Assembly (NCBI GenBank): GCA_031377945.1
Contig: JANMFL010000194.1
Coordinates: 1-41,697 of the forward strand
Length of the DNA: 41,697 nt
Direction: 5' to 3'
Source: Acidimicrobiaceae bacterium
Lineage (GTDB): Bacteria; Actinomycetota; Acidimicrobiia; Acidimicrobiales; Ilumatobacteraceae
In this document: in pieces, positions 13,052 to 34,640 of the stretch
How positions within the stretch are numbered: position 1 is the first letter of the stretch
Layout: the number at the start of each line of letters is the position of its first letter
The notes under the pieces: generated by a model
The model's input: only the letters and a program-made list of their open reading frames with translations
Database searches by the model: none
What the model was told of the DNA's origin: nothing
Translations under genes and position numbers: made by a program

Positions 13052-13322
13052 TGAGGGGCGACGCTAGCCGCACCGCCCGTCGTCGCTGCGGGCGCGTCGC
13101 CCATTCCGCGCGGTGCGTGGGTGGTCTTGCCGACTTCTTGAAAGATGACACCTTGCCCGTTGAGGAAATGTCACCTACCGTCACTTCGGCGCCTTCGGGC
13201 GCAACGGGATGTGACGATCCGCTGGCTGCAATTGGTCGCTTCGCCAGCGGGGAGCGAGAGCGAAACCGCCCCTATTTCTGATGCCGGGAACACCGCCGCC
13301 CGGCTTGACGTGGAGGTTGGGA

Positions 13323-16300
13323 ATGTCACAGGTGCGCACAGCGCTCCGTTCGACGACCGTGCGCGTGATCGCTGCAGTGATGATGCTGCTCGGTCTCGTC
13401 ACCGTCACTCCGATGCTGTCCGGGGCCGCGAGCGCACACCGCGCCCACCTCGAGGCGTCGGTGTCGTGCGACGGTTCGGTCGAGTGGACGGCCACGTCAT
13501 GGTCGAAGGACGACGACGGATCGAACGACGACGTCCGCATCCATCGCAGCAGCGATGGTGGTGACGCACAGGAGGTCGGTCACGGCTCGTTCTCCGGCGA
13601 CAACGAGTACTCCTTCTCCGGTCACTTCTCGTGGCCTGAGGGTGTCGATCACCTCACGGTCTCCTCCGAGCCGAAGAGCTCGTGGGGCAACGGTGAGGAC
13701 CCCGCCGACGAGGGACACGACGAGGTCGAACTCGACAAGCCCGATTGCGACGGTGACGCGCACGTCGAACACGAACTGCAGTGCGAGGACAGTGCGCCCG
13801 GCTACGGCGACGGTGCGGTCACCCTCACCCTCACCAACCCTGCGGGCCCGTTCGCCCACGACGCCGAGTTCCAGGTCTACGCCCCCGACCAGGACGACGA
13901 GTACGAGACGTACGCCGTTCCCGCCGGTGGCGAGCAGCAGGTGACCTACCACGACCTCGACGAAGGCCGTCACCACATCAAGGTCACCAAGGACGACGAG
14001 GACCACTCCCGCGACCTCGAGGTCGACTGCGATCAGGAAGTCCCCTCGGTCACCGCGTCGCAGGCCTGCGTGGCCGGCGACGGCGCGATCACGGTGAACC
14101 TGTTCAACACCGGCGGCGAGACGGTCACGTTCACCGTCGAACACCCGGTCACCCACGCCGTCGAAAGCGTGGTGGTTGCGGCGAATGCTTCGGCGAGCCG
14201 CACCTACTCGGGTCTCGCCGACGGTGAGTACGTCGTGAAGGTCACCTCGGGTGAGGCGGACCTGTCGCAGCACTTCACGGTCGATTGTGACCGCGAGGTC
14301 GAGCCTCCGAAGGGCGACGAGTGCGAGGCCCCGGGCAGCACCACCAGTACGAGCGTCGACGAGCACGAATCGTCCACCTCGACCGAAGAAGAGGGACCGA
14401 GCACTTCCGAGCGCGACGACGACCACGAGGCGTCGTCGACCAGTAGCTCGGTGGATGCCAACCCCTACTCGCGCTCCTACGCCACCACCACCACGTCCGC
14501 CACCACCACCACGGCCGACGACGACACCCCGTCGACGAGTTCGTCGGTGAAGGGCCACGAGTCGTCGAGCACCACCGATGACGCGTCGAGCACGTCCGAG
14601 AAGGACGACGAGTCCTCCAGTACGACCGACGAATCGACGAGCACGTCCGACGAGCACGAATCGACGAGTACGACGGTCGACGGACCCGACGACGAGCACT
14701 GCCAGCCGCCTGAAGGCGAAGGCACCATTCAGGTGGCCAAGGCGTGTGTGGCCAACGACGGCCAGGTGACGATCACCCTCACGGCGGTCGACGGCGAGGT
14801 CACGTTCGTGGTCGAGGGCACCGAGTACGAGGTGCAGCCGGGCAACCCGCAGCAGGTCGTCATCGGTGGCTTCACCGACGGGACGCACACCATTCACGTG
14901 ATGGCCGGTCACCAGGACCTGTCCTTCGACATCCTCATCGCGTGCGACTTGTCGCCGAAGGTCACGGTGTCGCAGGCGTGCAGCGGCTTCGACGGGGAGG
15001 CCACCTTCGTGCTCGAGAACCTCGGCGACGACCTCGACGCGACGTTCACGATCGACAGTGTGGACCACGTCCTGGCGCCCGGTGCGTCGACGACCGTCGT
15101 CATCGGCGGCCTCGCCGACGGCCCGAACACGTTCACGGTGTCGATCAACGGCGTGGCCATGCCCGACGTCACCCTGACGGTGGACTGCAACCCCTCGTTC
15201 GACATCGTGGCCCAGTGCAACGCCGTCGATCAGACCGGTGCGGTCACCGTGTACTGGTTCACCGTCACCAACACCCAGGACACCGAGATCACCGTCAGCT
15301 GGGACGGCGGCAGCACCGCCATCGCCGCAAGTGCGTCGGTCACCATCGGTTCGACCACTGCGCCACTGATGCTCAGTGTGGGCGGCGAGGTCGTCACCAC
15401 GGCCGCAGCCACCGACGTGGTCTGCAGCCGGTCGGTCACCGTCGACAAGCAACTCATCGGTGCGCCGAGCACTCCCGAGACCTACACCGTCACCATCTCG
15501 CGGCTCGTGGGCGACGCCTACGTTCCCGAATTGACGTTCCCCTTGGTCGCGGGTGAGCCCACCACCATCACCCTGCCGTCCACGCTGGACCCGGCGGGCG
15601 TGCAGTACCTGGTGGAGGAGACCGACAACGGCAGTGCCAACACCAGCGTCGTGTCACCCTCGCAGTTGACGCTGGCCGGCCACCTCGGCGAGACGGTCAG
15701 CGTGGTCGTCACCAACGGGTACGCGTCGGTGCTCATCGACAAGACGGTGTCCAGCCCCCAGATCGGTCTGGGTGGGCAGCTCACGTACACGTTGCAGGGT
15801 CGGAACACTGGCGGACTGACACTCGACCGGGTGGTCGTCAGTGACCGTCTGCCGGCCGGCGTGTCGTTCGTGGCCGCGGCAGTCGCCGACGGCGGTGGGA
15901 CCTGCGCCCTCGACGAGAGCACGCGACCGCAGTTGTTCCACTGCGATCTCGACGGCTCGCTCGCCGCTGGCGAGGGCACTCCGGCGATCACCGTCGTGGT
16001 GAACGTCGATGACGACACCACACTCGTGGGAGCGACGTTGACCAACCAGGCCAAGATCGTCGGCGACTATGCGTCGCCGACGTCATCGGCGGGGGTCGGC
16101 GCGGGCTCGGCGCTGTCGTGCGAGCCGGTGGTGGACGGTCAGGTGTGCGACCTGTCGGCGGCTGTGAACACCGTCATCGTCGGTTCTGACCCGCCGCCGC
16201 CGACCGTGCCTTCGACCACGGTGCCCGTGACCACCACGACCGTCCCCAAGGGTCCGCTCCCGCGGTCCGGCGGGACACCACTGCCACTGCTGTTGCTCGC

Positions 16301-16355
16301 GCTCGGCGCCACCTGCGTGGGTGGCTCACTGCTGCTCGCCCGCCGACGGATCTAG
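13323..16355 (+). CDS. Large secreted, sortase-anchored surface protein with Cys-bracketed repeat modules, an acidic Ser/Thr-rich linker and a DUF11-like C-terminal region
   Basis: ATG 13323 is preceded by GGAGG. The signal peptide is MSQVRTALRSTTVRVIAAVMMLLGLVTVTPMLSGAASA. Five or more modules of ~85-95 aa follow the pattern C-x-GDG-x-VT...F-V...GL-DG-H...VDCD. A low-complexity D/E/S/T tract spans about 14338-14700. KTVSSPQIGLGGQLTYTLQGRNTGGLTLDRVVVSDRLPAGVSFV resembles the DUF11 'conserved repeat domain'. The C-terminus is LPRSG (16257-16271), then a hydrophobic stretch, then RRRI. Confidence 0.85.
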   Translation: MSQVRTALRSTTVRVIAAVMMLLGLVTVTPMLSGAASAHRAHLEASVSCDGSVEWTATSWSKDDDGSNDDVRIHRSSDGGDAQEVGHGSFSGDNEYSFSGHFSWPEGVDHLTVSSEPKSSWGNGEDPADEGHDEVELDKPDCDGDAHVEHELQCEDSAPGYGDGAVTLTLTNPAGPFAHDAEFQVYAPDQDDEYETYAVPAGGEQQVTYHDLDEGRHHIKVTKDDEDHSRDLEVDCDQEVPSVTASQACVAGDGAITVNLFNTGGETVTFTVEHPVTHAVESVVVAANASASRTYSGLADGEYVVKVTSGEADLSQHFTVDCDREVEPPKGDECEAPGSTTSTSVDEHESSTSTEEEGPSTSERDDDHEASSTSSSVDANPYSRSYATTTTSATTTTADDDTPSTSSSVKGHESSSTTDDASSTSEKDDESSSTTDESTSTSDEHESTSTTVDGPDDEHCQPPEGEGTIQVAKACVANDGQVTITLTAVDGEVTFVVEGTEYEVQPGNPQQVVIGGFTDGTHTIHVMAGHQDLSFDILIACDLSPKVTVSQACSGFDGEATFVLENLGDDLDATFTIDSVDHVLAPGASTTVVIGGLADGPNTFTVSINGVAMPDVTLTVDCNPSFDIVAQCNAVDQTGAVTVYWFTVTNTQDTEITVSWDGGSTAIAASASVTIGSTTAPLMLSVGGEVVTTAAATDVVCSRSVTVDKQLIGAPSTPETYTVTISRLVGDAYVPELTFPLVAGEPTTITLPSTLDPAGVQYLVEETDNGSANTSVVSPSQLTLAGHLGETVSVVVTNGYASVLIDKTVSSPQIGLGGQLTYTLQGRNTGGLTLDRVVVSDRLPAGVSFVAAAVADGGGTCALDESTRPQLFHCDLDGSLAAGEGTPAITVVVNVDDDTTLVGATLTNQAKIVGDYASPTSSAGVGAGSALSCEPVVDGQVCDLSAAVNTVIVGSDPPPPTVPSTTVPVTTTTVPKGPLPRSGGTPLPLLLLALGATCVGGSLLLARRRI

Positions 16356-16374
16356 CGGTGCTCGGCCAGCGGAT

Positions 16375-17001
16375 CTAGGTGCCGGACAGTTTCAGGTGCA
16401 CCACGATCCGCTGGCGGGTGGACCCGGGCGGATGGCAGGCGAACATCGTCGCGGTGTAGCCGTCGGCCTGATCGATGATGTGGATGGCATCGGGGCCGAC
16501 GATCTCGGTGCCGACCACTTCGTACACGAACCGACCTTCGAGCGTGGTGAGCACCACCTCGTCGCCGGCCACCAATTGATCGATGTTGCGGAACGGACGA
16601 TCGTGACTGGTGCGATGGCCGGCGATGACCACGTTGCCCCGGTGACCCGGCTGCGCCGTTCCCGGCCAGTGACCGGGACCGTTGTCGAGCACCGTCAAGG
16701 ACACCCCCTCGAACATCGGCTTGGTCACATCGATCTTGGGGATCTCGATGGTGCCGATCTCGACGATCGGCTCGTTCGCACGCGGGTCCGGTGCCGGTGC
16801 GGGCACCGGCAGCGCCTCGGTAGTGGTGGTCGTCGGCTCGACGGTGGTGGTCGGCGCCTCGGTGGTCGTGGTGGACGACGTCGACGTGGTCGTCGTGGAC
16901 GCGGTGGTGGGCGCTGCGGTGTCGGCTGCCTGCCGGGCGTCGTTGCCGCACGCGACCAGCGCGAGTGCTGCGAGTGAGACCAGCGCCGTACGTCGAACCA
17001 T
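16375..17001 (-). CDS. Sortase-family transpeptidase with a lipoprotein-type signal (lipobox LVAC)
   Basis: ATG 17001 gives MVRRTALVSLAALALVACGND, followed by a Thr/Pro-rich linker. Catalytic motifs are VIAGHRTS (His), ATMFACHPPGS (Cys) and RQRIVVHL (Arg). It is convergent with the LPRSG protein and lies 4 nt downstream of the hemY stop. Confidence 0.85.
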   Translation of the reverse strand: MVRRTALVSLAALALVACGNDARQAADTAAPTTASTTTTSTSSTTTTEAPTTTVEPTTTTTEALPVPAPAPDPRANEPIVEIGTIEIPKIDVTKPMFEGVSLTVLDNGPGHWPGTAQPGHRGNVVIAGHRTSHDRPFRNIDQLVAGDEVVLTTLEGRFVYEVVGTEIVGPDAIHIIDQADGYTATMFACHPPGSTRQRIVVHLKLSGT

Positions 17002-17005
17002 CGGT

Positions 17006-18352
17006 TCATTCTGCCAGTGCGGCAGCAGCTTTCTGCGCGCTGTTGATGCACGCGGGCACACCGATGCCGTGATACCCGGCGCCAGCCAGCGCCAGTCCGG
17101 CGGGCAGTGCCGCTTCGATGGCGGCGACCTTGGCGGCGTGATGCGGTCGGTACTGGGGGAACGCTCCCGCCCAACGGGTGACGCGCTGTGCGGTGGGTGC
17201 GAGGTCGATCCCCAGGTGGTGGCCGACCTCGTCGATCGCGGCGTGCAGCAGGTCGTCGTCGCCGAGGTGCAGCACAGGGAGCCCGTCGCGGCCGAGCGAG
17301 ATGCGTAGCAGCACCGAACCCGGCACGGCCCAGTGCGGCCACTTCTGCGAGCCGAACGAGGCAGCCGTCACGAGACGCTGCACCGGCTTGGGCACCAGAT
17401 AGCCGCTCATCGGTCGATACCGGTCGGGCCAGTCGGCGGTGGGGACCGCGAGCGTCACCATGGCGACATCGGCCACGGGGATGGTGGCCAACGACGCGGC
17501 GGGCTCGGGAGCGACGGTGGCGAGCAGCCGCGCGGCTGCCGCCGGCGGGCAGGCCAGCAGCACTCGGTCGAAGCGTTCGCCGTCGACGCGCCAACCATCG
17601 CCGTCGACCGCCAGATCGGTGACCGTTGCGCCCCTGCGCAGGTCGGCGCCACCGGCCGAGGCGGCCTGGGCGACGCCCGCCGCCAGGGCGCCCATGCCGC
17701 CAGACGGGGCGTAGAAGACCGGACCGGCCGTGGGTGACGGTTTGGGCATCTTCCGGCCGGCCACGAGGATGCTCCGTGCCGCGCCGGCGAGATCGGCGAT
17801 CTGCGACACCGCCGCGAGGCTGAAGTGGTCGGTGTCGGCGGCGTAGATGCTGCCGACCAGCGGGTCGACCAACCGCAGGTGCACCTCGTCGCCGAATCGG
17901 GCGCGCACGTACGCGCCGAGCGAATCGTCGTCGAGCGAGGTGCGCGGCCGGAACGGTTCGGTGGCGGCGCGAATCTTGCCCGGCCACGAGATGAGCTTGC
18001 TCTTGGCCAGGGCGAGCACATCGGTGGGCATGCCCAGCAACAGGCCCTGGGGAATGTCGTGCAACTCGTTCCACCAGACCGCCGCCTTGCCCGACGCAGG
18101 CGACACGAGCGTGTCGCCGAGGCCGACCTGGCGGGCGAGCGCCGTGCCCCACGGAAGCCGGGCCAGGAACGCATCGGGGCCTTCGTCGATCGCGTCGTGC
18201 CCGGCGAACGGCGACGTGCGCAGCTTGCCGCCGAGTCGATCGTCACCCTCGAACAGCACGACCTGCTCGCCGGCGGTCGTGAGGGCCTGTGCCGCAGCGA
18301 GTCCGGCGATGCCGCCGCCGACGACGGCGACGCGGTACGGGCTGCGCGTCAC
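17006..18352 (-). CDS. hemY: Protoporphyrinogen/coproporphyrinogen III oxidase (HemY/CgoX family, FAD-dependent)
   Basis: GTG 18352 gives VTRSPYRVAVVGGGIAGLAAAQAL (the FAD dinucleotide fold). Later motifs are FEGDDRLGGKLRT and, at the C-terminus, GAGYHGIGVPACINSA. It lies 2 nt after the ferrochelatase stop. The rest of the 822-aa ORF is shadow. Confidence 0.85.
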   Translation of the reverse strand: MTRSPYRVAVVGGGIAGLAAAQALTTAGEQVVLFEGDDRLGGKLRTSPFAGHDAIDEGPDAFLARLPWGTALARQVGLGDTLVSPASGKAAVWWNELHDIPQGLLLGMPTDVLALAKSKLISWPGKIRAATEPFRPRTSLDDDSLGAYVRARFGDEVHLRLVDPLVGSIYAADTDHFSLAAVSQIADLAGAARSILVAGRKMPKPSPTAGPVFYAPSGGMGALAAGVAQAASAGGADLRRGATVTDLAVDGDGWRVDGERFDRVLLACPPAAAARLLATVAPEPAASLATIPVADVAMVTLAVPTADWPDRYRPMSGYLVPKPVQRLVTAASFGSQKWPHWAVPGSVLLRISLGRDGLPVLHLGDDDLLHAAIDEVGHHLGIDLAPTAQRVTRWAGAFPQYRPHHAAKVAAIEAALPAGLALAGAGYHGIGVPACINSAQKAAAALAE

Positions 18353-21225: not shown

Positions 21226-21261
21226 GGTCGTGCCGACCGTCGTGCCGACCGTTGTGCCGCT
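21226..21261. repeat. 12-bp tandem repeat x3 (GGTCGTGCCGAC / CGTCGTGCCGAC / CGTTGTGCCGCT)
   Basis: Read directly from the sequence. It fills most of the 52-nt gap between the convergent SDR stop (21209) and the Hcp-like stop (21262). Confidence 0.8.
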
Positions 21262-21822
21262 CTAGGTCGAGATCGTCGTGGCGATGTCGTACGAGGTGCT
21301 GACGTCGTCGTACGAGAACGTGATCTTGCGGAAGTTGATGCTCACGTTCTCGGTGAGCCGCGGTTCGCCGAGCGATCCGCCTTCGCTGACCGAACTGACC
21401 AGGACCTGGTCGAGCCGGATCTTCACGGTCGGCGAGCCCTTCGGGCCGATCCAGGTGAGGACGACCGATGGGAGGTGCCGTCCTGTCACGACGGCGGCGA
21501 ACAGCCGCGGGCTGTTGGCATCGACGTACTTGGTGAACGACAGGTCCTGCACGTTGGGCTTGCCGGCGCCACCCCCTCCGGCGGTCACCGAACCCGAGTT
21601 GGACGCACCCCACGAGAATGCGAGCGCGTTGAACGGCGTCATTCCGTTGCCGTTGATGGCAACCGTCAGCTTCGGCGCCGCGGGTGCCTTCTTGTCGCCG
21701 ACGTGGCCGCCGGTCGAGGCGACGGCGGTGGCTGCGGCGAGGCCGCCGGCGGCCATCAGCACTTCGCGGCGGTTGGCCTCGGTGTGCTCGAAGCCGCTGG
21801 TGGAACGATGGAACACGGACAT
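21262..21822 (-). CDS. Hcp1-family (T6SS tube protein fold) protein with an N-terminal twin-arginine-type signal peptide
   Basis: ATG 21822 is preceded by GGAGGAG. The N-terminus is MSVFHRSTSGFEHTEANRREVLMAAGGLAAATAVAS. The core contains LAFSWGASNSGSVTAGGGGAGKPNVQDLSFTKYVDANSPRLF and LDQVLVSSVSEGGSLGEPRLTENVSINF. These closely resemble P. aeruginosa Hcp1 as I recall it (GGGGGAGKVNVQDLSFTKYIDKSTPNLM and LKEVLVSSVSTGGSGGEDRLTENVTLNF). Confidence 0.8.
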   Translation of the reverse strand: MSVFHRSTSGFEHTEANRREVLMAAGGLAAATAVASTGGHVGDKKAPAAPKLTVAINGNGMTPFNALAFSWGASNSGSVTAGGGGAGKPNVQDLSFTKYVDANSPRLFAAVVTGRHLPSVVLTWIGPKGSPTVKIRLDQVLVSSVSEGGSLGEPRLTENVSINFRKITFSYDDVSTSYDIATTIST

Positions 21823-22010
21823 GGTGGTTCTCCTCCCCGCGCCCCCGGCGCAGCGGCGCGTCGCCAAATTCGACACGCACGTGCAGAGTGCATCGGCGGC
21901 GAACGCGGTGGCCTGGACCGAAAACCTGGTCGGTGGTGGTCGCACACGGTGCCGATAGAGTTTCCAGACCCATGTTTCGGGCGGCTCGCCCGGGCTGGAA
22001 CACCGTTCTC

Positions 22011-28321: not shown

Positions 28322-28353
28322 CTCCGCCACACCCCGTGACGACACTGGCTTGT

Positions 28354-29814
28354 ATGGGAGGCGAAGACCAGCTCGTGACCCGAGCGGTGATGTTCACGCT
28401 CGACGTGTCGCCGGCCCAGGATCAGATGCTGCGCAACTACTGCGGTGCAGCCAGGTTCGGGTACAACTGGGTGCTCGACCAGGCGACAGAGAACCTTGCG
28501 ACACGCTCGGCCGAACGTGAAGCGGGCGTTGCCGAGGACCGGTTGACGCCGGCGATGTCATGGTCTGCATACTCATTCCGCAAACAGTTCAACGCCGAGA
28601 AGACGGACGCCGCACCGTGGGCTGGTGAGGTCGCGAAGCACTGCTTCGACACCGGGATCAGCCAGTCTGCCGACGCCTTGAAGAACTGGTCCCTGTCACG
28701 CAAGGGCGAGCGTGCAGGTGCCCGGATGGGGTTCCCCAAGTTCAAGTCCCGCAAGACCGCGAAGCTGTCCGTGAGCTTCGTCGAGCTCAACCATCAGCTG
28801 TCGTGGTTCCACGACTCAAGACACGCGGTCCGGTTGATGCTGCCCCAGGCGCTGCTGCAGTCGAAGGACCGGCATGTGCGCGCCAAGATGCAGCAGCTCG
28901 TCTGGTTGCACACGATCGAGTCGACCCGACGGCTGTACCGGCTCGTCGAACAGGATCGGGCCACGATCCAGAAGGTGACGATCTCCTACACCGGGGGCCG
29001 TTGGCAAGCGTCGTTCCAGGTTCGTTACCGGGTCGACGCAGCACCGCAGAAGCGCGGTCACACCCGCATCGGTGGTGCATGCGGTGTCGATCTCGGTGTG
29101 ACCCATCTGACGACCCTGTCACGGGCGGTACCGGGTGTCAGCGACATTGAAGGTCACGTGTCGAACCCGCGACCGCTCGCGGTACAGCTCCACCGTCTGC
29201 GGGACCTCGACCGACGGTTGGCACGCTGCCAGGCCGGATCGAAGAACCGGGCCAAGCTCGTACGCCGGCGGGCCAGGTTGCACGGCCGGATCACCAAGAC
29301 CCGTGCGGCGGCACAGCATGCATTGGCCAACGAGCTCGCGGCACGGTTCGACCTGGTCGGCATCGAAGATCTCAACGTGCGTGGCATGTCGCACAACCGG
29401 CCGCTCGCCCGCGCCCTCGCCGACGCCGGTTTGGGCCAGCTCACCGAGTTCATCATCACCGAATGCGCCGACCGTGGCACACCGCTCGTGAAGGTGGGCC
29501 GGTTCTATCCGTCGTCGAAGACCTGCTCGAACTGTGGGACCGTGACAGCCAAGCTGTCCCTCAGCCAGAGGACCTTCGACTGCACCCAATGCGGCATCAG
29601 CGTCGATCGTGACGTGAACGCTGCACGCAACATCGAGCGTGAAGCCATCCGGCTCCACGCTCAACAGCAAGCCAGCCTCGAGCTGGAGGTCGCCGGGCTA
29701 CGACCGGAGACTCGAAACGCTGACCGGAGAACACACAAGACCTCCCCCACCAAGGTGGGGGAGGCAGTGTTCGTTGATGGCAGAACCAGGCAGCCGCACA
29801 CTCGTGTGGCATGA
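28354..29814 (+). CDS. tnpB: TnpB (IS200/IS605-family OrfB, RuvC-like RNA-guided endonuclease family)
   Basis: The track ORF starts at GTG 28336. ATG 28354 and GTG 28375 (VTRAVMFTLDVSPAQDQML, the usual TnpB N-terminus) are alternatives. The RuvC triad looks intact: GVDLGV (Asp), GIEDLNVRGM (Glu) and DRDVNAARNI (Asp). The zinc ribbon is CSNCG...CTQCG. Confidence 0.9.
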   Translation: MGGEDQLVTRAVMFTLDVSPAQDQMLRNYCGAARFGYNWVLDQATENLATRSAEREAGVAEDRLTPAMSWSAYSFRKQFNAEKTDAAPWAGEVAKHCFDTGISQSADALKNWSLSRKGERAGARMGFPKFKSRKTAKLSVSFVELNHQLSWFHDSRHAVRLMLPQALLQSKDRHVRAKMQQLVWLHTIESTRRLYRLVEQDRATIQKVTISYTGGRWQASFQVRYRVDAAPQKRGHTRIGGACGVDLGVTHLTTLSRAVPGVSDIEGHVSNPRPLAVQLHRLRDLDRRLARCQAGSKNRAKLVRRRARLHGRITKTRAAAQHALANELAARFDLVGIEDLNVRGMSHNRPLARALADAGLGQLTEFIITECADRGTPLVKVGRFYPSSKTCSNCGTVTAKLSLSQRTFDCTQCGISVDRDVNAARNIEREAIRLHAQQQASLELEVAGLRPETRNADRRTHKTSPTKVGEAVFVDGRTRQPHTRVA

Positions 29815-29875
29815 GACCTGGACGGGCCGACGGCAACGCCGGCCAGTACGGACAGTGAGCACCGAGCGGCAGGAT

Positions 29876-32429: not shown

Positions 32430-34004
32430 ATGCAGTTGTCGCGGCGCGGGTTCGTGATGGGAGCAGTGGGTGTGGGCGTCGCGGCAGCGACGCCGCTGGC
32501 GGTGCCGCGCCGGGTGCAGTCGGGCGCCGCAGACCCGATGCCGGCGCGCAAGTTGCCGAAGCCGTTCGCCGCGACGTTCGTTCGTCCGCCGGTGGCGCGG
32601 CCGGTGCGATCCACCGCGACGGAGGACGTCTACCTCATCGAGATGGCGGCGACGCAGGCCGAGATCGTGCCCGGGTTCCGCACGAACCTGTGGGCGTACA
32701 ACGGTTCGGTGCCGGGACCCACCATCCGGGCGACTCGAGGGCGAGCCGTGAGGGCCCGGTTCATCAACCGCCTGCCGTCCATGCACCCCGTGCTCGGGTA
32801 CGAGTCGTACACGTGCGTCCACCTGCACGGTGCGGCCTCGAAGCCGCAGTATGACGGCTACGCCAGCGACATCATCCACCCCGGTCAGTACAAGGACTAC
32901 CGGTGGGACAACAAGGAGTGCGGCCGGTCGCTCTGGTACCACGACCACGCCGTGCATCACACGTGGAGCAATGTCGCGATGGGGCTCGCCGCTCAGTACT
33001 TCATCGAGGACCCCGACGACGCGAAGTTCGGACTGCCGTCGGGTGCGTTCGACGTGCCGCTGCACCTCAGCGACGCGATGTTCCAGGCCGATGGGCAGCT
33101 GCTGATGGACCTCGAGAGCCTGAAGGGTTTCTGGGGTGACGTGATGTTGGTGAACGGTCGGCCCTGGCCGGCGATGCAGGTGCAGCGACGCAAGTACCGG
33201 TTCCGCGTCGTCAACGGATGTGTGTCGCGGTCGCTGTTCTGGCGGTTGAGCACCAACGACCCGTTCCAGGTGATCGGCACCGACGCCGGTCTCACCGGGG
33301 AGCCCATCACCGTGACCAAGCTGCGCCACGGCAACGGCGAGCGCTACGACGTGGTGATCGACTTCGCCAAGTACGCGCCGGGCACCCGGGTCGTCCTGCG
33401 CAACGACAGTCTCGACTACAACGACGACTACACGAACACCGACAAGATCATGGCATTCGACGTGGTCGGCGGCCAGGTGGACACCACGAACAACGCAGTG
33501 CCTCGCCAACTGCGGCCGGAGAACGAGATCGTCGCCATGCCAGTGCCCACGTGGGCCAAGGTACGGACGTTCCGCACCGAGCGGCAGGGCGGCGAGTGGA
33601 CCGTCGACGGTGTCACGTGGCACGACGTCATCAACAGCAACTATCAGCTCGTCGCCGCGGCACCGGTGGTGGGTGACAGCGAGATCTGGGAGTTCCACAA
33701 CAGTTCTGGCGGCTGGAGTCACCCCATGCACGTGCACGGGTGCGACAGCCGCCTGCTCAGCCGCAACGGTCGGGCCCCGTACCCCTACGAACGCGGGCCG
33801 AAGGACACCTATCTGGTCGGTGAGAACGAAACACTGCGGATCCTGATGAAGTTCGATCTGCCGGGCAAGTACATGATCCACTGCCACAACGGCGTCCACG
33901 AGGATCACGACATGATGGTCCAGTACGAGGCGGTGTCGACCACCGAGATCGCCGACGATCCGTTCTCGGCCCGCGCCAGGCTGTACGACGGCCAGGAGCT
34001 CTGA
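32430..34004 (+). CDS. Three-domain multicopper oxidase with a Tat signal peptide
   Basis: ATG 32430 is preceded by GGGAGGGAG. The signal is MQLSRRGFVMGAVGVGVAAATPLA (SRRxFV). Copper motifs are HLHG, WYHDH, HPMHVHG and HCHNGVHEDHDMM. Confidence 0.9.
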   Translation: MQLSRRGFVMGAVGVGVAAATPLAVPRRVQSGAADPMPARKLPKPFAATFVRPPVARPVRSTATEDVYLIEMAATQAEIVPGFRTNLWAYNGSVPGPTIRATRGRAVRARFINRLPSMHPVLGYESYTCVHLHGAASKPQYDGYASDIIHPGQYKDYRWDNKECGRSLWYHDHAVHHTWSNVAMGLAAQYFIEDPDDAKFGLPSGAFDVPLHLSDAMFQADGQLLMDLESLKGFWGDVMLVNGRPWPAMQVQRRKYRFRVVNGCVSRSLFWRLSTNDPFQVIGTDAGLTGEPITVTKLRHGNGERYDVVIDFAKYAPGTRVVLRNDSLDYNDDYTNTDKIMAFDVVGGQVDTTNNAVPRQLRPENEIVAMPVPTWAKVRTFRTERQGGEWTVDGVTWHDVINSNYQLVAAAPVVGDSEIWEFHNSSGGWSHPMHVHGCDSRLLSRNGRAPYPYERGPKDTYLVGENETLRILMKFDLPGKYMIHCHNGVHEDHDMMVQYEAVSTTEIADDPFSARARLYDGQEL

Positions 34005-34061: not shown

Positions 34062-34640
34062 GTGAACGAGCGGGGTAGCGACCACAACCGCCCTGCAATC
34101 CATCCGAACTCTCGCAGCGTTCTTGGTGTCGGCGGCATCGGTACGGGTGTGAGACTTGTTCGTGTGGAGCAACCAGAGGAGGCGGCTAGGGGATCGTTCG
34201 CCCACTTCTATGAGCAGGAACGACAGAGCGCGACCCGACTCGCATGGCTGTTGACGCACCACGTATCGACCGCCGAAGACGTGACCCAGGACGCGTTCAC
34301 CGCGGTGTTCGCTCGGTTCGACAGGCTCGACAATCCGGCCGCGTACCTGCGCAAGGTGATCGTGAACGCGGTCTACGAACGCTCCCGCCGCGGCGGCCGA
34401 GAACGGCGACGCCTCGCCCTCGTCCATCGAGATGCGGTGACATCGATCGACGGCCCGACAGGTGGTCTCGCCGATGCCATCGCCCGCCTCCCGCTCAACC
34501 AGCGAACGGCGATCGTTCTTCGCTACTGGGCGGACCTCGACCATCAAGCCATCGGTGACGCCATGGGGATCCGCCCCAGCAGCGTGCGATCGCTCTGCAC
34601 ACGCGCGACGACACAACTGAGAAAGGACCTCTTCCAATGA
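34062..34640 (+). CDS. ECF-type sigma-70 family RNA polymerase sigma factor
   Basis: Region 2 reads FAHFYEQERQSATRLAWLLTHHVSTAEDVTQDAF. Region 4 reads LPLNQRTAIVLRYWADLDHQAIGDAMGIRPSSVRSLCTRA. The start is uncertain: the track uses GTG 34062, and GTG 34149 or 34164 would give a more typical N-terminus. Confidence 0.85.
   Translation: MNERGSDHNRPAIHPNSRSVLGVGGIGTGVRLVRVEQPEEAARGSFAHFYEQERQSATRLAWLLTHHVSTAEDVTQDAFTAVFARFDRLDNPAAYLRKVIVNAVYERSRRGGRERRRLALVHRDAVTSIDGPTGGLADAIARLPLNQRTAIVLRYWADLDHQAIGDAMGIRPSSVRSLCTRATTQLRKDLFQ

What the first reader, a model, noticed from the sequence alone, without database searches (positions are those of the whole stretch)
21262..21822. Stand-alone Hcp1-family protein carrying a twin-arginine signal peptide
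The C-terminal ~130 residues are strikingly similar to the T6SS tube protein Hcp1: GGGGAGKPNVQDLSFTKYVDANSPRLF, VLVSSVSEGGSLGEPRLTENVSINF. The N-terminus is a classic Tat-type signal: an n-region ending in NRREVLM, an Ala/Gly-rich h-region and AVAS. Established knowledge is that Hcp is exported by the T6SS itself without a signal peptide, and that T6SS is a diderm apparatus. No Tss, VgrG or PAAR genes are visible within about 20 kb on either side; the neighbours are an SDR and HelD. A good SD (GGAGGAG) and high third-position GC argue that the gene is real. This suggests an Hcp ring/chaperone fold repurposed as a Tat- or Sec-exported extracytoplasmic protein, which I have not seen described.
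Basis: partly seen in the sequence, partly recalled or inferred. Interest (0 to 1): 0.75.

Follow-up and report, generated by a model that had tools for sequence, protein, structure and literature searches.

The report
Exported Hcp-like protein without T6SS
A Gram-positive (Acidimicrobiaceae) bacterium encodes a close relative of the type VI secretion tube protein Hcp that carries a twin-arginine-type export signal and has no secretion-machine genes nearby. A part of a Gram-negative weapon therefore seems to have been turned into an ordinary exported protein, something I could not find described.

Summary
Window 21262-21822 (-) encodes a 186-aa protein. Residues about 51-186 are an Hcp1-type domain (Pfam T6SS_HCP 80.9 bits; P. 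aeruginosa Hcp1 1Y12 E 9e-29; the AF2 model's best PDB match is 1Y12).

Residues 1-36 look like a Tat signal: NRREVLM, a 16-residue Ala/Gly-rich h-region and AVA|S. The RR motif is invariant in all 18 full-length relatives. This region is more conserved than the Hcp domain, so it is translated. The Pfam TAT_signal model does not score the window protein itself. Relatives score at or near the threshold.

The gene sits in a conserved core neighbourhood (HelD | Hcp-like | SDR | hemE/H/Y | sortase) in Acidimicrobiaceae MAGs. No Tss, VgrG or PAAR gene occurs in the window or in the related loci examined.

Compared with ordinary Hcps, the loops that mediate ring-on-ring stacking are trimmed. The gene evolves 3-9 times faster (dN/dS) than its neighbours.

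A profile search showed a wider, apparently undescribed set of exported Hcp-domain proteins: Tat-type, Sec-type, and Planctomycete-like proteins with six tandem Hcp domains.

Best reading: a T6SS-independent exported Hcp-like ring or binding protein. Its function is unknown. It is a new variant of a known kind.

The parts
21262..21822 (-). Complete CDS of the Hcp-like precursor (186 aa plus TAG stop at 21262-21264)
   Evidence: ORF listing and sequence. Pfam T6SS_HCP 80.9 bits. 17 full-length homologues.
21830..21836 (-). Shine-Dalgarno GGAGGAG, 7 nt before the ATG
   Evidence: Read directly from the sequence. A GGAG-rich motif is conserved at the same place in 5 orthologous loci.
21715..21822 (-). 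Predicted Tat-type signal peptide, residues 1-36 (n-region, RR motif, Ala/Gly-rich h-region, AVA|S)
   Evidence: R18, R19, V21, L22, A25, G27, A29 and A30 are invariant in 18/18 sequences. Hydropathy is low. It is comparable to or below that of the Tat signal of the multicopper oxidase in the same window, and far below that of the Sec signal of the DUF11 protein. pN is 0.06-0.13.
21754..21774 (-). Twin-arginine motif N17-R-R-E-V-L-M23
   Evidence: Relatives carry the textbook forms SRRNFVKG, TRRDFVKG and PRRDLLKG, which score 13-22.7 bits on Pfam TAT_signal.
21673..21714 (-). Variable Lys/Pro/Ala-rich linker, residues 37-50 (STGGHVGDKKAPAA)
   Evidence: Low pLDDT. dN/dS is about 1 and length varies among orthologues.
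21265..21672 (-). Hcp1-type beta-barrel domain, residues 51-186. Loops L1,2 and L4,5 and the C-terminal hairpin are trimmed; the Gly-rich L2,3 loop is retained
21823..21897 (-). Conserved 75-nt leader or promoter region with three palindromes (CACGTG core; GTCGAATTTGGCGAC; CTGCGCC-N-GGCGCGG)
   Evidence: Conserved in 5 loci, including L002, where the upstream neighbour differs. RNAalifold gives -23.7 kcal/mol but only 1 compensatory pair. No Rfam match. Its role is unresolved.

Best explanation
The gene encodes a T6SS-independent, exported Hcp-like protein.

Origin (inferred). An Hcp1-type gene entered or was retained in a Gram-positive lineage, gained a signal peptide, and has since evolved as an ordinary exported protein.

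Mechanism. Which steps are shown and which are inferred is marked.
1. The 186-aa precursor is made from the ATG at 21822. Shown by conservation.
2. Residues 1-36 act as a twin-arginine-type signal that targets the protein across the cytoplasmic membrane. Inferred from motif, composition and relatives.
3. Signal peptidase I probably cuts after A34-V-A36. Inferred.
4. The mature protein of about 150 aa consists of a flexible linker of about 14 residues plus a compact Hcp barrel. It ends up in the wall zone or outside a monoderm Acidimicrobiaceae cell.
5. There it most likely forms Hcp-type hexameric rings that act as a binding or scaffold ring, not as a stacked injection tube. The overhang loops that hold rings together in T6SS tubes are shortened, while the ring-forming core and the Gly-rich L2,3 loop are kept. 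Inferred.
6. Closely related members use Sec-type signals, so assembly probably happens after export and does not require folding in the cytoplasm. Inferred.

Its fast protein evolution suits an exposed protein involved in interactions with other organisms or with variable ligands.
For: - Hcp identity.
- Signal features: the RR motif and h-region are invariant in 18/18 sequences. There is an uncharged stretch of 15-27 residues and KD19 is about 1.4.
- Same-genome comparison: h-region hydropathy (KD12) is 1.77. The window's multicopper oxidase, a classic Tat substrate class with MQLSRRGFVMGAVGVGVAAA, scores 2.14. The Sec-type signal of the DUF11 surface protein scores 2.96.
- Relatives reach Pfam TAT_signal at or near the gathering score: P0163 22.7 bits, P0168 22.2.
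- These features match the published definition of Tat signals: S-R-R-x-F-L-K, an h-region of at least 12 residues that is Gly-rich and weakly hydrophobic, and AxA. Paired Arg is very rare in Sec signals (PMC7317946).
- The signal region is translated and constrained: pN 0.06-0.13 against 0.27-0.41 for the domain.
- Host: L001 and L002 are Acidimicrobiaceae MAGs. Neighbours are 77-94% identical to L001. A sortase and an LPXTG-type DUF11 protein lie nearby.
- Synteny: HelD | Hcp-like | SDR | hemE | hemH | hemY | sortase recurs in the window, L001 and L083, and partly in L084 and L002.
- No Tss, VgrG or PAAR gene in the window or in the related loci examined.
- Loop trimming: L1,2 is 8 against 18 residues, the C-terminal hairpin 9 against 19, L4,5 10 against 12, and L2,3 is unchanged at 21. 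L1,2 and L2,3 are described as overhang loops on the ring faces; L4,5, the C-terminus and (in B. pseudomallei) L2,3 are the elements placed at the hexamer-hexamer interface (PMC3925092, PMC4650826). No cited source gives a role for the C-terminal hairpin itself.
- The 18 full-length relatives form one clade on the Hcp domain alone (194/200 NJ bootstraps).
- Sec-type members fall among the Tat-type ones.
- dN/dS between the window and L001 is 0.57, against 0.06-0.18 for five neighbours.
Against: - Pfam TAT_signal and TIGR01409 do not score the window protein itself. There are only weak hits to Rieske and formate-dehydrogenase Tat regions (E 0.03-0.1).
- No SignalP or TatP tool was available.
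- No tatA or tatC gene is in the window.
- A signal peptide more conserved than its passenger is unusual. It could mean an uncleaved anchor or a specific recognition partner.
- Hexamer formation was not modelled; only a monomer was.
- No conserved partner gene gives a functional clue.
- High dN/dS (up to about 1 in some pairs) and the degenerate motifs in orthologue P0011/L083 could indicate weak constraint and not adaptation.
- dS is compressed by GC3 of about 0.88, which inflates dN/dS.
- Whole-genome absence of T6SS rests on general knowledge, not on a scan.
Confidence: 0.6

Rival explanations
1. The N-terminal region is not cleaved. It acts as a Tat-inserted signal-anchor, as in Rieske proteins, so that the Hcp-like domain is tethered to the outer face of the cytoplasmic membrane by the flexible linker.
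For: - The N-terminal 36 residues are the most conserved part of the protein, which is atypical for a cleaved signal.
- The only HMM hits of this region are to Tat signal-anchors of Rieske proteins: UCR_Fe-S_N at E 0.1, and QcrA_N in relatives at E 0.02-0.04.
- The AxA site is short and not strictly conserved; several orthologues have ATAIG.
- A Lys/Pro/Ala linker follows the region.
Against: - The hydrophobic stretch is only about 16 residues and Ala/Gly-rich (KD19 1.41), which is weak for a stable transmembrane helix.
- The HMM hits are far below their cut-offs.
- Small residues at -3 and -1 are present in most members.
Confidence: 0.2
2. The protein is exported, but through Sec rather than Tat. 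The RR pair is an incidental or dual-use feature.
For: - Pfam TAT_signal gives no hit for the window protein.
- Valine replaces the consensus Phe, and there is no Lys at +5.
- Related members of the same clade have plain Sec-type signals.
- Tat and Sec signals overlap functionally (PMC7317946).
Against: - RR is invariant in 18/18 members and in about 18 further Tat-type representatives, several with the textbook S/T-R-R-x-F/L-V/L-K-G.
- Paired Arg is very rare in Sec signals.
- The h-region is much less hydrophobic than the Sec signal of the DUF11 protein in the same genome (1.77 against 2.96).
Confidence: 0.12
3. It is a decaying relic of a horizontally acquired hcp gene with no present function.
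For: - dN/dS is 0.44-0.99 over the Hcp domain and 0.57 overall, against 0.06-0.18 for neighbours.
- Orthologue P0011/L083 has lost several otherwise invariant Hcp motifs: GGGAGK to GGESSTGR, and QDLS to RELA.
- There is no partner gene.
Against: - The ORF is intact, with the same start, SD and leader, in at least 5 syntenic lineages separated by dS of about 0.5.
- 21 columns are invariant across 18 proteins that are as little as 42% identical to the window protein.
- GC3 of 0.88 equals that of neighbours, so the gene is long resident.
- The signal region is under clear purifying selection (dN/dS 0.13-0.36 in most pairs).
Confidence: 0.06
4. It is a normal cytoplasmic tube subunit of a T6SS or other contractile injection system encoded elsewhere, and the signal is an annotation artefact.
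For: High similarity to Hcp1, about 55% identity over 110 residues. The rest of the genome was not seen.
Against: - The N-terminal extension is conserved at the protein level and no alternative start is conserved. M23 is Leu in most orthologues.
- The stacking loops are trimmed.
- The host is an Acidimicrobiaceae with a sortase.
- T6SS is not known in Actinomycetota (established knowledge).
- No tss genes occur in any related locus examined.
Confidence: 0.03

Closest known systems
Hcp1/TssD of P. aeruginosa H1-T6SS (PA0085, PDB 1Y12) and the Pfam T6SS_HCP family
   Same: The sequence is about 55% identical over residues 64-172. The signature GGGGAGK-NVQDLSFTKY and VSSVS-GGS-GE-RLTENV motifs are shared. 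The predicted beta-barrel plus single-helix fold is the same, and the Gly-rich L2,3 loop is retained.
   Different: It carries a 36-residue signal peptide plus linker, whereas Hcp has none and is exported by the T6SS. It lacks the KGES-containing L1,2 loop, about 10 residues of the C-terminal hairpin and 2-3 residues of L4,5. There is no T6SS gene context. The host is Gram-positive. It evolves fast.
Orphan hcp islands and Hcp-ET (Hcp with C-terminal extended toxin domains)
   Same: The hcp gene lies away from a main T6SS cluster.
   Different: Orphan hcp genes and Hcp-ETs still work with a T6SS elsewhere in a Gram-negative genome and have no signal peptide. This protein has no C-terminal extension (186 aa in total) and does have an export signal.
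Canonical Tat substrates of Actinobacteria, such as multicopper oxidases (one lies in this window at 32430-34004)
   Same: The N-terminal layout is the same: polar n-region, RR-x-hydrophobic-hydrophobic, Ala/Gly-rich h-region, small residues at -3 and -1 (PMC7317946).
   Different: The passenger has no cofactor, so there is no obvious need for folding in the cytoplasm. The motif deviates from S-R-R-x-F-L-K (N-R-R-E-V-L-M) and falls below the Pfam TAT_signal threshold.
Tail-tube proteins of phages and extracellular contractile injection systems
   Same: They belong to the same structural superfamily of ring-forming tube proteins.
   Different: The sequence is specifically Hcp1-like and not gp19/tube-like. 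There are no sheath, baseplate or spike genes nearby. The one PHROG hit is a family of unknown function. Those tubes assemble in the cytoplasm without signal peptides.

Membership tests
T6SS tube protein Hcp/TssD | Sequence or profile match to the Hcp family | tested here: met
   Pfam PF05638 scores 80.9 bits against a cut-off of 23.5. 1Y12 scores E 8.7e-29. NCBIfam TIGR03344 is below its threshold, 32.9 against 58.9 bits.
T6SS tube protein Hcp/TssD | Hcp fold (beta-barrel plus one helix) | tested here: met
   AF2 core pLDDT is above 90. The top 50 Foldseek PDB hits are all Hcp structures.
T6SS tube protein Hcp/TssD | No N-terminal signal peptide; leaves the cell through the T6SS | tested here: not met
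   A conserved 36-residue RR-type signal region is under purifying selection.
T6SS tube protein Hcp/TssD | Encoded with, or in a genome with, T6SS core genes (TssA-M, VgrG, PAAR) | tested here: not met
   None in the 41.7-kb window nor in the related loci examined. The whole genome could not be scanned.
T6SS tube protein Hcp/TssD | Full-length overhang loops and C-terminus that mediate head-to-tail ring stacking | tested here: not met
   L1,2 is 8 against 18 residues, L4,5 10 against 12, and the C-terminal hairpin 9 against 19. Roles of L1,2, L2,3, L4,5 and the C-terminus are from PMC3925092 and PMC4650826; the hairpin itself has no cited role.
T6SS tube protein Hcp/TssD | Hexameric ring assembly | not testable with these tools
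   Only monomer prediction was available. The helix and the beta8/beta9 elements of the intra-ring interface are retained in the model.
Tat (twin-arginine) signal peptide | Paired arginines in a Z-R-R-x-hydrophobic-hydrophobic motif at the n/h boundary | tested here: met
   NRREVL at residues 17-22. RR is invariant in 18/18. The definition is from PMC7317946.
Tat (twin-arginine) signal peptide | h-region of at least 12 residues, weakly hydrophobic, Gly/Ala-rich | tested here: met
   VLMAAGGLAAATAVAS has KD12 of 1.77, against 2.96 for a Sec signal in the same genome.
Tat (twin-arginine) signal peptide | Score at or above the curated threshold of the Pfam TAT_signal or TIGR01409 models | tested here: not met
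   No hit for the window protein. Relatives P0163 (22.7 bits, equal to the cut-off) and P0168 (22.2) are at or near it.
Tat (twin-arginine) signal peptide | Signal peptidase site (small residues at -3 and -1) | tested here: inconclusive
   A34-V-A36|S37 is present. The position and residues vary among orthologues. No cleavage predictor was available.
Tat (twin-arginine) signal peptide | TatA/TatC present and export Tat-dependent | not testable with these tools
   No tat genes are in the window. A multicopper oxidase with a textbook SRRGFV signal in the window implies a working Tat pathway.

The most novel reading that the evidence does not exclude
Exported Hcp-domain proteins form a distinct, undescribed, T6SS-independent branch of the Hcp superfamily. 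It would include the Tat-type proteins in Actinomycetota, the Sec-type proteins in other lineages, and the single-chain proteins with six tandem Hcp domains that carry Planctomycete-like N-termini. These proteins would assemble rings, or covalently closed pseudo-hexamers, outside the cytoplasmic membrane as a new kind of extracellular ring scaffold. One concrete possibility for the actinobacterial form is a surface 'sponge' whose lumen captures Hcp-dependent effectors, such as cell-wall hydrolases, released by Gram-negative competitors. That would fit its arms-race-like rate of change.
Probability: 0.25. Interest if true: 0.85.

Novelty: new variant of a known kind. Interest (0 to 1): 0.68.

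Why it matters
Hcp is treated as a diagnostic part of the T6SS. It is regarded as a cytoplasmically assembled tube and chaperone of Gram-negative bacteria that has no signal peptide. Its presence is used to annotate genes as 'type VI secretion' and as a read-out of T6SS activity.

A conserved Hcp homologue that a Gram-positive bacterium exports through a general pathway shows that the ring fold has a second life outside the machine. It also warns against calling T6SS from hcp alone in metagenomes; the JGI entries for these proteins are all named 'type VI secretion system secreted protein Hcp'.

It gives a tractable entry point, a small soluble protein, for asking what an Hcp ring does on its own. 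The six-domain single-chain versions offer a natural test of the hexamer as the functional unit.

Tried and rejected
- The metagenome-contig scan with the family alignment returned only ordinary Hcps. Its second pattern, LTENVTLNF, matches all Hcp1-type genes. The four loci that seemed to cover the N-terminus were upstream read-through. I used the look-up of encoding contigs instead.
- NCBIfam scanning of all 18 members for a Tat model gave only sub-threshold formate_TAT hits.
- I looked for a conserved partner gene that might hint at function. The core clade has only housekeeping neighbours. The P0016 clade has a 70-aa ORF, a 129-aa ORF and ApbE. P0153 has polysaccharide deacetylases. P0137 has DUF6198. 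Nothing is shared.
- Rfam found nothing in the conserved leader. The promoter and terminator scans were uninformative in this GC-rich DNA.
- PADLOC gave no hit and PHROGs gave only a family of unknown function. I therefore dropped the defence-system and phage-tail readings.
- The antisense ORF 21278-21958 (+) has high GC3 (0.87). It is the usual mirror-frame artefact: its homologues are less conserved than the sense frame (48-54% against 62-66%) and it has no domain.
- A single clade of all signal-bearing Hcps appeared in NJ trees (Jaccard 0.91-0.97) but bootstrap support was weak (0.9 or more in only 29% of replicates). I do not claim a single origin for the Tat and Sec forms together.
- Eight literature searches found no description of signal-peptide Hcp or of six-domain Hcp proteins. 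One large comparative paper was also checked.
Full report
**1. What is there**

On the minus strand, an ORF runs from ATG 21822 to TAG 21262-21264 and encodes 186 aa. GGAGGAG lies 7 nt upstream of the ATG. The ORF listing extends it to a GTG at 21945. All orthologues begin with the same MSVFxRS, and the SD and leader are conserved in front of that ATG, so 21822 is the start. Codon-position GC (GC3 0.88) matches the neighbours. The high-GC3 antisense ORF 21278-21958 is a mirror-frame artefact: it is less conserved than the sense frame and has no domain.

**2. The Hcp part is real**

- Pfam T6SS_HCP scores 80.9 bits against a cut-off of 23.5, over residues 66-171 and profile positions 22-129.
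- phmmer against the PDB puts P. aeruginosa Hcp1 (1Y12) first at E 8.7e-29.
- An AF2 model built on 59 sequences has pLDDT above 90 across most of residues 51-180. The first 35-45 residues are disordered.
- The best 50 Foldseek PDB matches are all Hcp structures.
- NCBIfam's stricter TssD model is matched only below its threshold.

**3. The signal part**

Residues 17-23 are N-R-R-E-V-L-M. They are followed by 22 uncharged residues that start with a 16-residue Ala/Gly-rich stretch (VLMAAGGLAAATAVAS) and include A34-V-A36|S37.

In an alignment of the 18 database proteins that cover the whole query, R18, R19, V21, L22, A25, G27, A29 and A30 are invariant.

These are the published defining features of Tat signals: the S-R-R-x-F-L-K motif, an h-region of at least 12 residues that is weakly hydrophobic and Gly-rich, and an AxA site. 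Paired arginines are very rare in Sec signals (PMC7317946).

Within the same window there are two useful comparisons. A multicopper oxidase, a classic Tat passenger class, starts MQLSRRGFVMGAVGVGVAAATPLA. The sortase-associated DUF11 surface protein has a much more hydrophobic Sec-type signal. The best 12-residue hydropathy values are 1.77 (Hcp-like), 2.14 (oxidase) and 2.96 (DUF11).

The weak point is that Pfam TAT_signal and TIGR01409 do not score the window protein. Only faint hits to Rieske and formate-dehydrogenase Tat regions appear. More distant relatives of the same family carry textbook motifs (SRRNFVKGAAG, TRRDFVKGAAG, PRRDLLKGAAG). They score 13-22.7 bits against a cut-off of 22.7.

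**4. The signal region is translated and constrained**

I compared codons among five orthologues (window, L001, L002, L083, L084).

| Region | pN | dN/dS |
|---|---|---|
| Residues 1-36 (signal) | 0.06-0.13 in nine of ten pairs | mostly 0.13-0.36 |
| Linker | not summarised | near 1 |
| Hcp domain | 0.27-0.41 in nine of ten pairs | 0.44-0.99 in nine of ten pairs |

The exception is the near-identical pair L001-L084, with pN of about 0.03-0.04 in both regions and dN/dS of 0.32 for the domain.

No internal Met is conserved; M23 is Leu in most orthologues.

It is odd that a signal peptide is the best-conserved part of a protein. That keeps alive an uncleaved signal-anchor reading.

**5. Host and context**

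A pattern scan of one genome per species (185,579 species) found the NRREVL-type protein in only two, both Acidimicrobiaceae MAGs.

The window is collinear with L001. Most neighbours are 77-94% identical: Lnt, DUF11 surface protein, sortase, hemY, hemH, hemE, SDR, Hcp-like, HelD. The Hcp-like protein itself is only 62% identical.

The same HelD | Hcp-like | SDR | hemE | hemH | hemY | sortase order recurs on independent metagenome contigs.

Pfam scans of about 30 larger ORFs across the window found no Tss, VgrG, PAAR, sheath or baseplate gene. None occurs in the loci carrying more distant family members either.

From established knowledge, Acidimicrobiia are Gram-positive Actinomycetota and T6SS has not been reported in that phylum. 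I could not scan the whole genome.

**6. How it differs from ordinary Hcp**

| Element | Tat-type members (36) | Ordinary Hcps (60) |
|---|---|---|
| L1,2 loop (carries the conserved KGES motif) | 8 residues | 18 residues |
| C-terminal hairpin | 9 | 19 |
| L4,5 | 10 | 12 |
| Gly-rich L2,3 | 21 | 21 |

These values are medians.

Structural work on EAEC Hcp1 and B. pseudomallei Hcp1 describes L1,2 and L2,3 as overhang loops on the ring faces. It places L4,5, the C-terminus and, in B. pseudomallei, L2,3 at the hexamer-hexamer interface needed for tube stacking. The helix and the beta8/beta9 strands make the stronger intra-ring contacts (PMC3925092, PMC4650826). Neither paper gives a role for the C-terminal hairpin itself.

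The window protein keeps the helix (residues 104-113) and the C-terminal strands.

My inference is that ring formation is likely retained and that stacking into a T6SS-type tube is probably not.

**7. Rate of evolution**

Between the window and L001, dS is similar for all genes compared (0.5-0.77). dN/dS is 0.57 for the Hcp-like gene. It is 0.06 for hemE, 0.15 for HelD, 0.16 for Lnt, 0.17 for sortase and 0.18 for DUF11.

One orthologue, P0011/L083, has lost several otherwise invariant Hcp motifs.

This pattern fits either an exposed protein under diversifying pressure or weak constraint. Strong GC3 bias compresses dS, so the ratios are inflated.

**8. Family picture**

On the Hcp domain alone, the 18 full-length relatives form one clade in 194 of 200 NJ bootstraps. 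The signal-domain fusion within this group therefore arose once. Long-branch attraction is a caveat.

A profile of the family was searched against 1.84 billion representatives. With the hits, this gave three groups:

- About 36 Tat-type single-domain proteins.
- About 32 single-domain proteins with Sec-type signals. Some are otherwise canonical Hcps, for example ...SGFS|AVDMFLKIEGIKGES.
- About 70 long proteins. Most have exactly six Hcp domains. Many start with an RRxLxxExLExRxLLA-type motif that I recognise from Planctomycete secreted proteins.

Thirteen Sec-type members nest among the Tat-type ones in the NJ tree. Export seems to be the conserved trait and the pathway is interchangeable. 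That argues that folding or ring assembly in the cytoplasm is not obligatory.

A single clade of all signal-bearing forms is suggested but poorly supported.

Contexts of a Sec-type member and of a six-domain member again lack T6SS genes. The Sec-type member lies next to a 1029-aa protein that fuses Hcp with cadherin-like domains.

AF2 on a six-domain protein gave pTM 0.79 for 1068 residues. Such a value implies a fixed arrangement of the domains, consistent with a single-chain ring. I could not inspect the coordinates.

**9. Mechanism proposed**

Shown: the precursor includes the N-terminal region, the fold is Hcp, the gene is stand-alone and resident in a Gram-positive lineage, and the stacking loops are trimmed.

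Inferred: targeting by Tat, cleavage after A36, an extracytoplasmic location, hexameric ring assembly after export, and a binding or scaffold role rather than a tube.

The function itself is unknown. No partner gene is conserved.

**10. Rivals**

- Uncleaved Tat-type anchor: confidence 0.2.
- Sec rather than Tat export: 0.12.
- Non-functional relic: 0.06.
- Cytoplasmic tube subunit with a mis-called start: 0.03.

**11. Novelty**

Eight full-text searches and a check of the large polymorphic-toxin survey found nothing on Hcp with signal peptides, Hcp in Actinomycetota or six-domain Hcp proteins. Databases simply label these proteins 'type VI secretion system secreted protein Hcp' or 'Hcp1'.

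I rate it a new variant of a known kind. The fold and family are known. The export route, host type, loop architecture and independence from T6SS are new. Interest is 0.68.

Noticed in passing
P0121-P0128, P0130, P0132-P0136 and others; example L092 10001-13207: There are about 70 representative proteins of roughly 900-2160 aa, most with exactly six tandem Hcp domains in one chain. Many start with a Planctomycete-like RRxLxxExLExRxLLA N-terminus. There is no T6SS gene on the 18-kb locus examined. AF2 of P0124 gave pTM 0.79 and mean pLDDT 79.6, consistent with a fixed arrangement of the six domains that may be a single-chain ring. I found no description in the literature.
   Followed up: partly
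L090 8001-8534 and 8545-11634 (also L091): A canonical-looking Hcp with a Sec signal peptide (P0269/P0260: MIYRLLPILLLLAPLSGFS|AVDMFLKIEGIKGES) lies directly upstream of a 1029-aa protein that combines an Hcp domain with cadherin-like, He_PIG and Big_9 domains. There are no T6SS genes within 14 kb.
   Followed up: partly
window 21823-21897 (-): A 75-nt region upstream of the Hcp-like ATG is conserved in five orthologous loci, including one with a different upstream neighbour. It holds three palindromes or hairpins (CACGTG core; GTCGAATTTGGCGAC; CTGCGCC-N-GGCGCGG next to the SD). Only one compensatory pair was seen and there is no Rfam match. Operator or 5'UTR structure is undecided.
   Followed up: partly
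window 21227-21259: A tandem 12-mer, GTCGTGCCGACC, is repeated about 2.75 times in the 52-nt gap between the convergent stops of the SDR and the Hcp-like gene. It is absent from the orthologous gaps in L001 and L002.
   Followed up: no
window 32430-34004 (+): A multicopper oxidase has a textbook Tat signal (MQLSRRGFVMGAVGVGVAAATPLA). It is followed by an ECF-type sigma factor gene at 34062-34640. It is indirect evidence that this organism has a working Tat pathway.
   Followed up: partly
window 28336-29848 (+): An IS605/TnpB-type gene (OrfB_IS605 plus the Cas12f1-like TNB domain) has an Rfam 'Transposase-2 RNA' match (46.8 bits) overlapping its 3' end at 29776-29848. This layout is typical of a TnpB guide RNA.
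   Followed up: no
window 13281-17061: A 1024-aa DUF11/PLipase_C_C surface protein with a Sec signal lies next to a sortase gene (16375-17061, -). The pair is conserved in L001 and marks the host as Gram-positive.
   Followed up: partly
L083 2339-2917 (P0011): This syntenic orthologue keeps the signal peptide intact but has lost several invariant Hcp motifs: GGGAGK to GGESSTGR, QDLS to RELA, and WSWG to FSFG. This may be relaxed constraint or functional drift in that lineage.
   Followed up: no
L085 2775-5111: In the divergent P0016-P0018 clade the Tat-type Hcp-like gene is flanked by a 70-aa ORF and a 129-aa ORF with no known domains, followed by an ApbE (flavin transferase) gene. This context differs from that of the core clade.
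   Followed up: partly
P0175: A 440-aa metagenomic protein has a Sec-like signal (MPMGSLQPLATLYLLGMLVASVLAQSNA) followed by a sequence identical to the N-terminus of P. aeruginosa Hcp1. It may be an engineered construct or a natural fusion. It was not examined.
   Followed up: no
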